Shown piece after piece: positions 61,201 to 64,000 of a stretch of DNA of 64,000 bases. Made by a program: the position numbers. The stretch is taken from assembly GCF_056712565.1 (NCBI RefSeq), contig NZ_CM160072.1; one strand, written 5' to 3'. Numbering within the stretch: the first letter of the stretch is position 1; every line of letters starts with the position of its first letter.

Positions 61201-64000
61201 CTATTAGCCATTCCCTTCTTCGTGTTAGCCGGAAACATTATGAATACCGGTGGTATAGCCAGACGACTGGTTAACCTGGCGCAAGCATTAGTTGGGCGTC
61301 TTCCTGGCTCACTGGCTCATTGTAATATCCTCGCGAATACACTGTTTGGTGCGATTTCAGGTTCAGCCGTTGCGTCAGCCGCAGCGGTAGGTGGGATTAT
61401 GTCACCACTGCAAGAAAAAGAGGGATATGATCCGGCGTTTTCAGCAGCGGTTAATATTGCCTCTGCCCCCATTGGCCTGATGATCCCACCGAGCAATGTG
61501 TTGATTGTTTATTCCCTCGCCAGTGGCGGGACTTCTGTCGCTGCGTTGTTCTTAGCTGGATATCTGCCGGGCATCCTCACCGCTGTTGCCTTAATGTTTG
61601 TAGCTGCACTTTATGCACGACGTCACCATTACCCAGTGGCCGAACGCATCAATTACCGTCAGTTTTTACAGGTATTCCGCGAATCAATTCCTAGCCTGAT
61701 GCTTATTTTTATCATTATTGGCGGTATTATCGCAGGGGTATTTACGCCCACAGAAGCATCAGCAATAGCGGTAATTTATAGTTTAGCCCTGGCGATGATT
61801 TACCGGGAAATCACTCTTAAGAAGCTCAATGATATTCTGTTAGATTCGGTAGTAACCAGTTCAATTGTTCTGTTACTGGTAGGCTGTTCAATGGGAATGT
61901 CATGGGCCATGACGAATGCTGATGTTCCTGAGTTGATCAACGAACTGATTACCCGCGTTTCGGATAACAAATGGGTCATTCTGTTTATTATCAATATCAT
62001 TCTGTTGATCGTCGGTACCTTTATGGATATCACGCCGGCGATCCTGATATTTACACCTATTTTCCTGCCGATCGCCCAGCATCTGGGGATTGATCCGATT
62101 CACTTCGGCATAATTATGGTTTTCAACTTAACCATTGGCCTTTGCACACCACCTGTCGGCACCATTCTGTTTGTGGGGTGCAGCATTGGTAAGGTCAGTA
62201 TCGACAGGGCAATAAAACCATTACTGCCGATGTTTCTGGCATTGTTTGTAGTAATGGCAATTATTTGTTATTTCCCGCAGCTTAGTCTGATGCTGCCAGG
62301 ATTATTTTCGACCTGATACACAATGAAGACTGCATACTGAGTAATTTTCAATGCCCCACCACTCTGTGGGGCATTGAATTGGTCCATTACGGTACCGGAT
62401 TGACCAACAGTTGCCCAATCGAGCCACGGTCCGCCATTTCCAGCGTCTGACTGTTGAAGTAGAACGGGAAGTGCGCCCAGGAAGGCTGACCGAAATAAAC
62501 AAGCAGCTCCACTTGTCCGTCAACCCAAACGGTATCTTTCCAGCCTCTGTCTTCCGGGAACGGCATCGCGCCATTCACGTTACGGATCTGGAACATCACG
62601 CCTTCAATATGGAACGCTTGCGGCTCGTCCGCGCGCACCGTCCAGCGTTCCCACGTTCCTTGCTGCGCAGTAACATCAATACGGTTGACGTCCCACAACT
62701 GCCCATTAATCCCCGGGTCATCACCCAGGCTGATATCACGACTTCGAATCGGCGAACCGGCCATGATTTCAGTTGGCAGCAAGCGCATCGGAAGACTGTC
62801 TGTGACCAGCGGCAGAAGGCCGGTTGGGCGCAGCGTTAGCACCAGCGTAGAAACCAGAATGCTGGATGGCTCAAAGAAGCCACGAATACGATCAACAATG
62901 CTCGCCGCTTCGCCACAGGTAATCGACACTTCATCACCGTTGCTCATATCCACCAGAATCTCACGACGCTCGCCCGGTGCCAGCGAAAGTTGCTTCACCG
63001 ATACAGGAGCGGGCAGGAATCCTTGATCGCCAGAAATCACATGTAACGGGCGACCATCGCTCATCTGTAGTTGATAGCGACGAGAGTTCGACGCGTTCAA
63101 CAGACGCAAGCGCACCCAGCCACGCGAGACTTCAACGTACGGGCTTTGTACACCGTTAACCAGTAGCGTATCGCCAACAAAGCCGCCGCTTCCCGGTTCG
63201 TTATATTCTGGCGTACCAAAGTTATCCAGCCGTTTATCCTGAATAATGACAGGAAAATCATCCACACCATAATGGTTGGGGATAGGCAGCGATTTACTGA
63301 CTTCATCTTCCACCAGCCACATTCCGGCAAGGCCGTTATAAACCTGCTGAGCCGTGCGGTTGGGAGTATTGGCGTGATACCACAGAGTAGCTGCGTTCTG
63401 GCGAATGGGCAGTACGGGTGCCCAGTCAGCATTTGGCGACATCATCCGTGCCGGACCGCCCATCAGCGGGCCAGGTACCTGTAGCCCGGCCACCGTCATT
63501 GAGACATTTTCTGTCAGGCGGTTGCTGTAAATAAGCTTAACATCGTCGCCCTTCCAGACGCGGATAGTCGGCCCCAGGTAACGACCATTGATTCCCCAAA
63601 CCGACGCGCGTGTCCCTGGCGTAAATGACCAGTGCGCACGTTGTACAGTCATAAACAGCGGTTGCCCACGGCGAGATTCAAGCAGCGGCGGAACGGGTAG
63701 CGGTTGCTGTTGCCCGGCTGCGCTGGCCTTCAGGGGAACAGCGCCTGCACAAAGTGCAATCCCCGATGCCTGAATGAACTGACGCCGACTGAGTGACATA
63801 TTTGCTCCATGTAAAACTGGCTAAAGTAATACCGTGCAGGAAAGTGTTCCCCGCAAAAATACAGATTGCCGACTTAAACTTTTCCGGCGGCTTCGCGTTC
63901 TGCGACTTCTTTATCGAGCTCGGCGATTTTTTGTTCCATTATCGAACGACAATGGGCAGCCAACTCGCGAACCTGATCTTTGCCATACTGACTGACGTCA

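What the first reader, a model, noticed from the sequence alone, without database searches (positions are those of the whole stretch)
62317..62386. Right-hand junction of the TRAP cassette carries its own hairpin next to ftsP
The 70-bp spacer between the dctM-like stop and the ftsP stop contains a 9-bp perfect inverted repeat (aatgcccca...tggggcatt). If the cassette is an insertion, this hairpin is either the original ftsP terminator or was brought in with the island; which one it is would place the insertion boundary.
Basis: inference. Interest (0 to 1): 0.25.

Follow-up and report, generated by a model that had tools for sequence, protein, structure and literature searches.

The report
Deletion-scar hairpin downstream of ftsP
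The hairpin is real and longer than reported, but it is an ordinary single-copy stem-loop shared by the 3' ends of two convergent genes: it is neither the K-12 ftsP terminator nor part of the sugar-transporter cassette, but a leftover of a third, mostly deleted gene module.

Summary
The window is E. coli ATCC 11775 (phylogroup B2 by my own knowledge). The 70-bp spacer (62317-62386) is as described. The inverted repeat is a perfect 13-bp stem with a 6-nt loop (62347-62359 / 62366-62378), not 9 bp. About 0.01 such repeats are expected per 64 kb by chance.

K-12 does not share it. K-12 has a different hairpin (CATACTCGCCC-N5-GGGCGAGTATG) at the same place. That one is alignable to Salmonella and Citrobacter, so it is the ancestral ftsP terminator. 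It was removed in this haplotype, and homology resumes 1 nt outside the ftsP stop codon.

The hairpin is also not the TRAP cassette's own terminator. TRAP-bearing E. whittamii, E. albertii and a divergent genome labelled E. coli carry another 18-bp hairpin next to dctM and lack this one.

A homologue follows ftsP in 14 E. coli genomes that have two ~470-aa genes instead of the TRAP cassette. The B2 spacer is a deletion scar: 34 nt identical to that haplotype, joined to the last ~34 nt of the second gene.

No U-tract follows on either strand. It most likely acts as a 3'-end-protecting, weakly terminating stem-loop. This is an ordinary feature of low interest.

The parts
61012..62316 (+). TRAP transporter large permease (dctM-like), last gene of the cassette; stop TGA at 62314-62316
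   Evidence: PGAP annotation of the identical record NZ_CP033092.2; ORF list; translation
62317..62386 (.). 70-bp spacer between the convergent stop codons of dctM and ftsP; a composite deletion scar
62347..62378 (.). Perfect 13-bp stem / 6-nt loop hairpin (arms 62347-62359 and 62366-62378, loop 62360-62365); forms in both convergent transcripts
62353..62386 (-). 34 nt directly after the ftsP stop (ftsP-sense TGGACCAATTCAATGCCCCACAGAGTGGTGGGGC). This is 34/34 identical to the ftsP-proximal sequence of E. coli genomes that carry two ~470-aa genes here (L085, L089). It contains the ftsP-side arm, the loop and the top 7 nt of the other arm
62317..62350 (-). Remnant of the last ~34 nt of the coding sequence of the deleted 469-aa gene (ftsP-sense TGAAAATTACTCAGTATGCAGTCTTCATTGTGTA). 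Its first 4 nt (TGAA) form the bottom of the dctM-side arm
   Evidence: Local alignment of the 36-nt query 62317-62352 to the L003 gene end: 27 identities over 36 alignment columns (including a 2-nt gap), score 19, against a maximum of 13 in 24,856 control windows; multiple alignment
62387..63799 (-). ftsP (cell division protein FtsP), stop codon at 62387-62389
54642..62385 (.). 7,744-bp segment absent from K-12 (GntR regulator, mannitol-DH-family, Zn-ADH, Ldh-family oxidoreductase, TRAP dctPQM, plus this spacer). It replaces 59 bp of the K-12 ygiQ-ftsP spacer, including the ancestral ftsP hairpin
   Evidence: described in the literature as genomic region GR 21 ygiQ..ftsP (PMC12928451)

Best explanation
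What it is. The 13-bp stem-loop at 62347-62378 is a single-copy hairpin in the 3' untranslated spacer shared by convergent ftsP and dctM. It is the surviving ftsP-proximal hairpin of a gene module that once lay between ftsP and the TRAP cassette. That module was a hairpin followed by two paralogous ~470-aa membrane/ankyrin-type genes.

How it arose. In the lineage of this genome a ~3-kb deletion removed those genes. The deletion joined the upper part of the hairpin's distal arm (GTGGGGC) to the last ~34 nt of the second gene. A second ~50-nt deletion removed that gene's stop codon and the strong 18-bp hairpin that separates it from dctM in other Escherichia. As a result the lower 6 bp of today's perfect stem (TTCAAT/ATTGAA) are younger than the 7-bp GC core. 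The ancestral ftsP terminator hairpin of K-12, Salmonella and Citrobacter is absent from this haplotype.

How it most likely works (inferred, not shown). The palindrome folds equally well in the ftsP mRNA and in the TRAP operon mRNA. No U-tract follows it on either strand. It therefore probably acts as the stable 3' stem-loop that stops 3'-5' exonucleases and fixes the 3' end of both convergent transcripts. Transcription would stop weakly at the hairpin, or beyond it by Rho or by polymerase collision. It is now the only strong predicted structure between the two genes.
For: Not the K-12 terminator:
- 4,199 of 5,426 complete E. coli genomes have the K-12-type junction and about 1,207-1,209 have this junction.
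- K-12 carries CATACTCGCCC-GAGGA-GGGCGAGTATG instead.
- Its core CTCGCCC/GGGCGAG plus the following GAATACCTTTCGATTTC aligns across Escherichia, Citrobacter and Salmonella arizonae.

Sharp boundary:
- The last ~210 nt of ftsP are identical between this genome and K-12, and identity ends 1 nt after the stop codon.

Not the TRAP cassette's terminator:
- TRAP-positive L004, L005 (E. whittamii), L008 and L092 (E. albertii type) lack this hairpin.
- They have an 18-bp hairpin, AAACAGACGGGCCTGAAT/ATTCAGGCCCGTCTGTTT, next to the dctM stop.

Origin:
- 14 E. coli genomes have ftsP, a 50-bp spacer with a homologous hairpin, ORF474, ORF469, then ygiQ.
- Escherichia sp. L003 has the hairpin followed by ORF469.
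- 62353-62386 is 34/34 identical to L085 and L089.
- 62317-62350 aligns with the 3' end of ORF469 far above the null.
- E. albertii keeps ORF469 directly next to dctM.

Structure:
- The 7-bp core GCCCCAC/GTGGGGC is kept in all six E. coli variants; the only change is C->T, which gives G.U (L083). In L003 the loop-closing C-G pair needs a 1-nt bulge.
- Loops differ freely (AGAGTG, AAAGTG, TGAGTG, AGAGAA, GGAGAAGT).
- Three stem positions change on both sides between variants.
- The junction is at least 99% identical in 1,214 genomes.

Function by analogy:
Against: - Function is untested here. There is no canonical terminator on either strand.
- There is no C>G, rut-like composition downstream on either strand.
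- Covariation support is weak with only 5 distinct sequences: 58 of 500 shuffles reach the observed values.
- Near-invariance among about 1,200 genomes may simply reflect recent common descent.
- The exact deletion end-points are ambiguous by 2-4 nt (AT at 62351-62352).
- The order of events relative to the intermediate variant (L085, L089) is unresolved.
Confidence: 0.6

Rival explanations
1. The hairpin has no RNA-level role. It is a mutational by-product: a quasipalindrome left at a deletion junction and made perfect by replication template switching. It is then inherited by descent in the lineage that carries the TRAP island.
For: - The lower 6 bp are new relative to all relatives.
- An imperfect intermediate exists: L085 and L089 have the same 5' arm and loop, but only a 7-bp stem.
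- Template switching is known to convert imperfect inverted repeats into perfect ones in E. coli (PMC7202029; PMC5941160).
- There is no U-tract and no rut-like signal.
- The junction is nearly invariant, as expected for a young clonal allele.
Against: - The GC core of the hairpin is older than the deletion. It is kept, with free loop variation and a G.U-compatible change, in seven other variants that sit directly after ftsP.
- Every ftsP-ygiQ spacer examined across Enterobacteriaceae starts with some strong hairpin, which argues that a stem-loop is needed after ftsP.
- Origin by template switching and a present RNA function are not mutually exclusive.
Confidence: 0.25
2. It is the original ftsP terminator, merely diverged from the K-12 allele. 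The island would then begin beyond the hairpin.
For: - It has the same position directly after the stop codon.
- The commoner variant of the hairpin (ATCGCCCCAC/GTGGGGCGAT) shares the hexamers TCGCCC/GGGCGA with the ancestral hairpin.
Against: - Local alignment scores of the ancestral spacers (K-12, Salmonella, two Citrobacter) against the hairpin regions of the three island-side haplotypes (B2, hap3, L003) are within the null distribution; the fraction of control windows scoring as high is 0.05-0.93.
- ftsP of strain PT62 (L084) differs from K-12 at 2 of 1,413 nt, yet its downstream sequence is unalignable from the first base after the stop codon.
- Megablast finds no homology.
Confidence: 0.05
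3. It is the TRAP cassette's own dctM terminator, brought in with the island.
For: - It lies 30 nt from the dctM stop.
- It is absent from K-12.
Against: - Other TRAP-positive Escherichia have a different hairpin there and lack this one.
- The hairpin occurs in TRAP-negative genomes.
- It has no U-tract for the dctM transcript.
Confidence: 0.05
4. It is a copy of a dispersed palindromic element (REP/BIME/MITE-like), or a palindromic protein-binding operator.
For: - It is a perfect palindrome.
- Many other genera carry REP-like elements in the same spacer.
Against: - It is essentially single copy: one place in the window and a median of one place per matching genome, highest 2.
- It matches no Rfam family.
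- It lies between two stop codons, away from any promoter.
Confidence: 0.03

Closest known systems
[quoted passage not shown]
   Same: It is an energetically stable stem-loop directly downstream of a stop codon that is not followed by a U-rich stretch.
   Different: No 3'-end map exists for this strain. No C-rich, G-poor rut-like stretch follows on either strand. Here a single palindrome would serve two convergent transcripts.
Rho-independent (intrinsic) and bidirectional terminators
   Same: It has a G+C-rich stem (7 consecutive G-C/C-G/A-T core pairs), a short loop, and lies between convergent genes.
   Different: It has no U-tract on either strand. The only T-run (TTTT, 62343-62346) lies 5' of the stem on the + strand, the reverse of the A-tract/hairpin/T-tract layout.
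Ancestral ftsP terminator hairpin of K-12, Salmonella and Citrobacter (CTCGCCC-loop-GGGCGAG)
   Same: It has the same position relative to the ftsP stop codon, and similar size and stability.
   Different: The sequence is not alignable above chance. The ancestral hairpin and 59 bp of spacer are deleted in this haplotype.
Quasipalindrome correction by template switching (Ripley model; Lovett laboratory, PMC7202029; PMC5941160)
   Same: A relative has an imperfect repeat (7 bp, L085/L089). The sequence here is a perfect 13-bp repeat that differs only in one arm.
   Different: Here the new arm sequence coincides with a 3-kb deletion junction, and part of it (TGAA) is alignable to the deleted gene's 3' end. 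A simple deletion plus chance or selection is therefore not excluded.

Membership tests
Rho-independent (intrinsic) terminator | G+C-rich stem-loop shortly downstream of a stop codon | tested here: met
   13-bp stem, 6-nt loop; about -23 to -27 kcal/mol on both strands
Rho-independent (intrinsic) terminator | U-tract immediately 3' of the stem | tested here: not met
   The tails are UUGGUCCA (+) and AAUUACUC (-). The consensus scan finds no terminator in the spacer on either strand
Rho-independent (intrinsic) terminator | Termination at the site in vivo or in vitro | not testable with these tools
   Needs Term-seq, 3' RACE or in-vitro transcription
Bidirectional intrinsic terminator | A-tract 5' and T-tract 3' of one hairpin between convergent genes | tested here: not met
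   On the + strand TTTT precedes the stem and TTGG follows it
Protective 3' stem-loop of Rho-dependent transcripts | Stable stem-loop not followed by U-rich sequence at the end of a transcription unit | tested here: met
   definition from PMC6061677
Protective 3' stem-loop of Rho-dependent transcripts | rut-like C-rich, G-poor region just downstream | tested here: inconclusive
   C/G = 0.94 (ftsP sense) and 1.26 (dctM sense) over 80 nt; the background median is 1.0 and the 90th percentile 1.5
Protective 3' stem-loop of Rho-dependent transcripts | Mapped steady-state 3' end at the hairpin base, sensitive to bicyclomycin and exonuclease mutants | not testable with these tools
   No data for B2 strains. 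The K-12 3'-end tables searched list no ftsP end, and the Dar & Sorek supplement is not held
Ancestral (K-12-type) ftsP terminator | Sequence homology to CTCGCCC-loop-GGGCGAG plus GAATACCTTTCGATTTC | tested here: not met
   Megablast homology stops at the stop codon. Local alignment is within the null
REP/BIME or other dispersed palindromic repeat | Many copies per genome | tested here: not met
   One copy in the window; a median of one place (highest 2) per matching genome, 1,227 places in 1,225 genomes
Described RNA families (Rfam 15) | Covariance-model match | tested here: not met
   0 matches at E <= 1 in 62000-62700, both strands
Integrase-type genomic island end (att site) | Flanking direct repeats, integrase, tRNA target | tested here: not met
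   No direct repeat of >=8 bp between the two ends. No integrase or tRNA gene is annotated in the island
Quasipalindrome perfected by template switching | An imperfect relative whose arms differ exactly where the perfect copy is complementary | tested here: met
   L085 and L089: same 5' arm and loop, 3' arm GTGGGGCGATAC, 7-bp stem; here GTGGGGCATTGAA, 13-bp stem
Quasipalindrome perfected by template switching | Demonstration that the change arose by intramolecular templating | not testable with these tools
   Only a historical inference is possible

The most novel reading that the evidence does not exclude
A single hairpin-templated replication template switch both deleted the ~3-kb two-gene module and extended the old 7-bp hairpin core into a perfect 13-bp palindrome. 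The nascent strand would have copied ATTGAA from its own 5' arm and then re-annealed at TGAA/AATTAC near the end of the 469-aa gene. The rebuilt hairpin would then have been retained because, after loss of the 18-bp dctM-side hairpin, it became the sole insulator between ftsP and the convergent TRAP operon. This would be a naturally fixed quasipalindrome-associated deletion, present in the ~1,200 TRAP-island-bearing genomes of the collection searched.
Probability: 0.2. Interest if true: 0.3.

Novelty: new member of a known kind. Interest (0 to 1): 0.15.

Why it matters
The result matters little beyond this locus.

- It fixes the right-hand boundary of a known strain-specific island (GR 21, ygiQ..ftsP) at the ftsP stop codon.
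- It shows that the island is a composite of two modules, one of them reduced to about 70 bp.
- It illustrates how the stem-loop after a conserved gene can be replaced wholesale while 'a hairpin after ftsP' persists across Enterobacteriaceae.
- For annotation, it warns that the spacer contains a pseudogene fragment.
- For anyone engineering the TRAP locus in B2 strains, deleting the cassette up to ftsP would also remove the only 3' stem-loop of ftsP.

Tried and rejected
1. Homology between this hairpin and the ancestral K-12, Salmonella or Citrobacter hairpin. By eye the TCGCCC/GGGCGA core and a GAAT motif looked shared. Smith-Waterman scores were no better than against about 17,800 control windows, so I rejected it.

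2. A canonical terminator. The scan is negative on both strands.

3. A Rho-utilisation signature. There is no C>G skew downstream.

4. Rfam. No match.

5. A mobile-element end. There are no flanking direct repeats of >=8 bp. A 7-bp inverted match (TGTATCA at 54642, its complement at 62314-62320) is at chance level (my estimate).

6. Published 3'-end maps. The Adams et al. tables list no ftsP 3' end, and the Dar & Sorek supplement is not held.

7. Covariation statistics on 5 variants. There are three double changes, but 58 of 500 shuffles do as well. This is suggestive only.

8. Using ftsP alleles to decide whether the intermediate variant (L085/L089) is an ancestor of the B2 form or a recombinant with it. 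The last ~80 nt of ftsP are the same in all E. coli examined apart from one site in L084, so this is uninformative.

9. I did not search for the donor of the TRAP cassette outside Escherichia. The within-genus comparison already answers the question asked.

Full report
**Identity of the window and check of the observation.**
The query region is 100% identical to E. coli DSM 30083 = ATCC 11775 (NZ_CP033092.2). That this strain is phylogroup B2 is my own knowledge. PGAP annotates a TRAP large permease (window 61012-62316, +) convergent with ftsP (62387-63799, -).

- The spacer folds at -24.7 kcal/mol on the + strand and -26.6 kcal/mol on the - strand. None of 200 shuffles folds as well.
- Only four distinct perfect repeats of >=11 bp with short loops exist in the 64 kb. 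Shuffles give 0.01 repeats of >=13 bp.
- It is single copy in the window and sits at a median of one place (highest 2) per matching genome.
- It matches no Rfam family.

In K-12 (L001), ygiQ and ftsP are separated by 110 bp. Identity with the window runs from ygiQ to 54641. It resumes at 62386, one base outside the ftsP stop codon. So 7,744 bp here replace 59 bp of K-12.

Those 59 bp contain a different hairpin, CATACTCGCCC-GAGGA-GGGCGAGTATG, directly after the ftsP stop. Of 5,426 complete E. coli genomes, 4,199 have the K-12-type junction and 1,207-1,209 have the junction seen here. The hairpin is therefore not shared, and the right-hand boundary is at the ftsP stop codon. The boundary is sharp:
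- The last ~210 nt of ftsP are identical between this genome and K-12.
- Strain PT62, whose ftsP differs from K-12 at 2 of 1,413 nt, is nevertheless unalignable to K-12 from the first base after the stop.

**Which hairpin is the original ftsP terminator?**
A scan of one genome per species gave 80 loci. In most Enterobacteriaceae, ygiQ follows ftsP after 90-200 bp. Every spacer examined begins with a strong hairpin, but the hairpins are very diverse; many are REP-like or CCCTCTCCC/GGGAGAGGG elements.

The K-12-type hairpin core CTCGCCC/GGGCGAG, followed by GAATACCTTTCGATTTCTC, aligns across two further Escherichia species, five Citrobacter loci and Salmonella arizonae. The lower stem differs between genera, mostly in a complementary way. 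The K-12 hairpin is thus the ancestral ftsP terminator of the Escherichia/Salmonella/Citrobacter group, and it has been removed in this genome.

**Did the hairpin come with the TRAP cassette?**
No. The cassette is present next to ftsP in these loci:
- E. whittamii (L005);
- a genome labelled E. coli SCPM-O-B-8794 (L004), whose ftsP differs from K-12 at 128 of 1,413 nt;
- E. albertii (L008 and, with the same arrangement, metagenome contig L092).

None of them has this hairpin. Between the dctM stop and whatever lies beyond, they have a different and much stronger hairpin. It has an 18-bp stem, AAACAGACGGGCCTGAAT / ATTCAGGCCCGTCTGTTT. That hairpin is missing from the window.

**Where the hairpin does come from.**
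Fourteen E. coli genomes carry a third haplotype: ftsP, a 50-bp spacer, a 474-aa gene, a 469-aa gene, a 115-bp spacer, then ygiQ, with no TRAP genes.
- The two genes are 27% identical paralogues. The second is annotated in some records as ankyrin-repeat-containing and the first in one record as a membrane protein.
- Their 50-bp spacer is TGGACCAATT + hairpin + CAAGGATGAATC.
- Escherichia sp. MOD1-EC7003 (L003) has the same layout with only the 469-aa gene.
- E. albertii has the 469-aa gene immediately next to dctM, separated by the 18-bp hairpin.

The window's spacer is a mosaic of these two ends. Positions 62353-62386 are 34/34 identical to the ftsP-proximal sequence of L085 and L089. Positions 62317-62350 align with the last codons of the 469-aa gene. 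The L003 alignment has 27 identities over 36 columns (including a 2-nt gap) and scores 19, against a maximum of 13 in 24,856 control windows. Shorter remnants of the same gene end survive in L004 and L005.

So the spacer is a deletion scar. One deletion of about 3 kb removed the two genes. A second of about 50 nt removed the stop codon of the 469-aa gene and the 18-bp hairpin.

L003 additionally retains 50 bp of the mannitol-dehydrogenase-family gene, about 50 bp of the island's ygiQ-proximal end, and an IS1 fragment. It too therefore descends from a haplotype with both modules.

**Anatomy of the stem.**
Hairpin variants, read in the ftsP sense:

| Variant | Loci | 5' arm | Loop | 3' arm | Stem |
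|---|---|---|---|---|---|
| A | L084, L086, L087, L088 | TTCATCGCCCCAC | AAAGTG | GTGGGGCGATAC | 10 bp |
| G | L091 | as A | AGAGTG | as A | as A |
| F | L090 | as A | AGAGAA | as A | as A |
| B | L083 | as A, one C->T giving G.U | TGAGTG | as A | as A |
| E | L003 | TATCGCCCCA | | TGGGGCGATA | 10 bp |
| C | L085, L089 | TTCAATGCCCCAC | AGAGTG | GTGGGGCGATAC | 7 bp only |
| D | this window | TTCAATGCCCCAC | AGAGTG | GTGGGGCATTGAA | 13 bp |

(Sources.)

- The 7-bp core is constant and the loop is free to vary.
- Three stem positions change on both sides between variants. With five distinct sequences this is not significant: 58 of 500 shuffles do as well.
- The bottom 6 bp of the perfect stem exist only in the TRAP-bearing E. 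coli form. Their 3' half (ATTGAA) sits exactly at the deletion junction, and its last four bases align with TGAA of the deleted gene.

This fits either of two routes. One is a deletion followed by correction of the other arm. The other is a hairpin-templated template switch that created the junction. Such switches are known to perfect quasipalindromes in E. coli (PMC7202029; PMC5941160). I could not decide the order of events.

**Function (inferred).**
No U-tract follows the stem on either strand: UUGGUCCA follows on the + strand and AAUUACUC on the - strand. The terminator scan is negative in the spacer. It therefore fails the defining test for an intrinsic or bidirectional terminator.

[quoted passage not shown] However, no C-rich, G-poor stretch follows, and no 3'-end data exist for this strain.

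Two observations support a role at the RNA 3' end. Some strong hairpin follows ftsP in every spacer examined. In this haplotype both the ancestral hairpin and the 18-bp hairpin are gone. The most likely role is therefore a 3'-end-defining, exonuclease-blocking stem-loop for both convergent mRNAs, with at most weak termination. A purely mutational origin without function remains a serious rival.

**Novelty and verdict.**
The island itself is already described as genomic region GR 21 (ygiQ..ftsP), shared by the ExPEC and AIEC model strains compared in that study (PMC12928451). The hairpin is an ordinary member of a known kind of element.

The proposed test works and places the boundary at the ftsP stop codon. 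The either/or interpretation is wrong in an instructive way: the hairpin belongs to a third, almost completely deleted module. Interest is low.

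Noticed in passing
L083-L089, L091 (e.g. L084 8553-11432); homologues at L018 11463-12851 and L033 11551-12834: There is a third ygiQ-ftsP haplotype in 14 complete E. coli genomes. Two paralogous ~470-aa genes (27% identical; hypothetical, membrane or ankyrin-repeat by annotation) lie between ftsP and ygiQ. More distant homologues sit downstream of ftsP in Citrobacter gillenii and Superficieibacter electus, so this gene family recurs at this site. In some E. coli strains the second gene is truncated or split by IS1 (L085, L088, L089).
   Followed up: partly
L004 11500-11538, L005 11466-11504, L008 13694-13729: An 18-bp-stem, 3-nt-loop hairpin (AAACAGACGGGCCTGAAT/ATTCAGGCCCGTCTGTTT; spacer MFE about -40 kcal/mol) lies between the 469-aa gene (or its remnant) and the dctM stop in other Escherichia species. 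It is deleted in the window.
   Followed up: partly
L003 13054-13676: Escherichia sp. MOD1-EC7003 has a degraded island: the 469-aa gene, an IS1 InsA-like fragment, 50 bp of the mannitol-dehydrogenase-family gene, and the ygiQ-proximal ~50 bp of the TRAP island.
   Followed up: partly
window 54592-54700: Left-hand island boundary. K-12 identity ends at 54641. A TATAAT (complement at 54634-54639, with C for A at 54639 in this genome), conserved upstream of ygiQ across many genera, is retained. Everything upstream of it (the presumed -35 region of ygiQ) is island sequence. In the two-gene haplotype the K-12-type ygiQ upstream region (TTTCGATTTCTCTTTCGTTCCGGC) is kept instead.
   Followed up: partly
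L009-L082, first ~110 nt after ftsP: The ftsP-ygiQ spacer is a hot spot across Enterobacteriaceae. It holds REP-like elements (GCCGGGTGGCGGC...), CCCTCTCCC/GGGAGAGGG palindromes (sometimes several in tandem), and unrelated inserts of 1.5-2.8 kb in several Citrobacter, Yokenella, Pseudocitrobacter and Enterobacter species.
   Followed up: no
window 21121-21151, 30279-30313, 44230-44258: These are the three other perfect inverted repeats (12, 15 and 11 bp, short loops) in the window. I did not examine them.
   Followed up: no
L001 4002-5414 (NZ_CP017100.1, K-12 NEB 5-alpha): ftsP is annotated as a pseudogene with an internal stop in this laboratory strain's record.
   Followed up: no
L048 (CACSKA010000008.1): A contig labelled Chryseobacterium sp. 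18061 carries an enterobacterial ftsP-ygiQ locus (FtsP 90% identical). The record is probably mislabelled or contaminated.
   Followed up: no
NZ_CP175691.1 (hit H70): This is one of a handful of E. coli genomes that fit none of the three haplotypes. Only the ftsP side of the K-12 junction matches.
   Followed up: no
L002 22628-23820 (outside the window): An orphan Hcp-family type VI secretion gene plus a hypothetical gene lie between ygiZ and mdaB in ATCC 11775.
   Followed up: no
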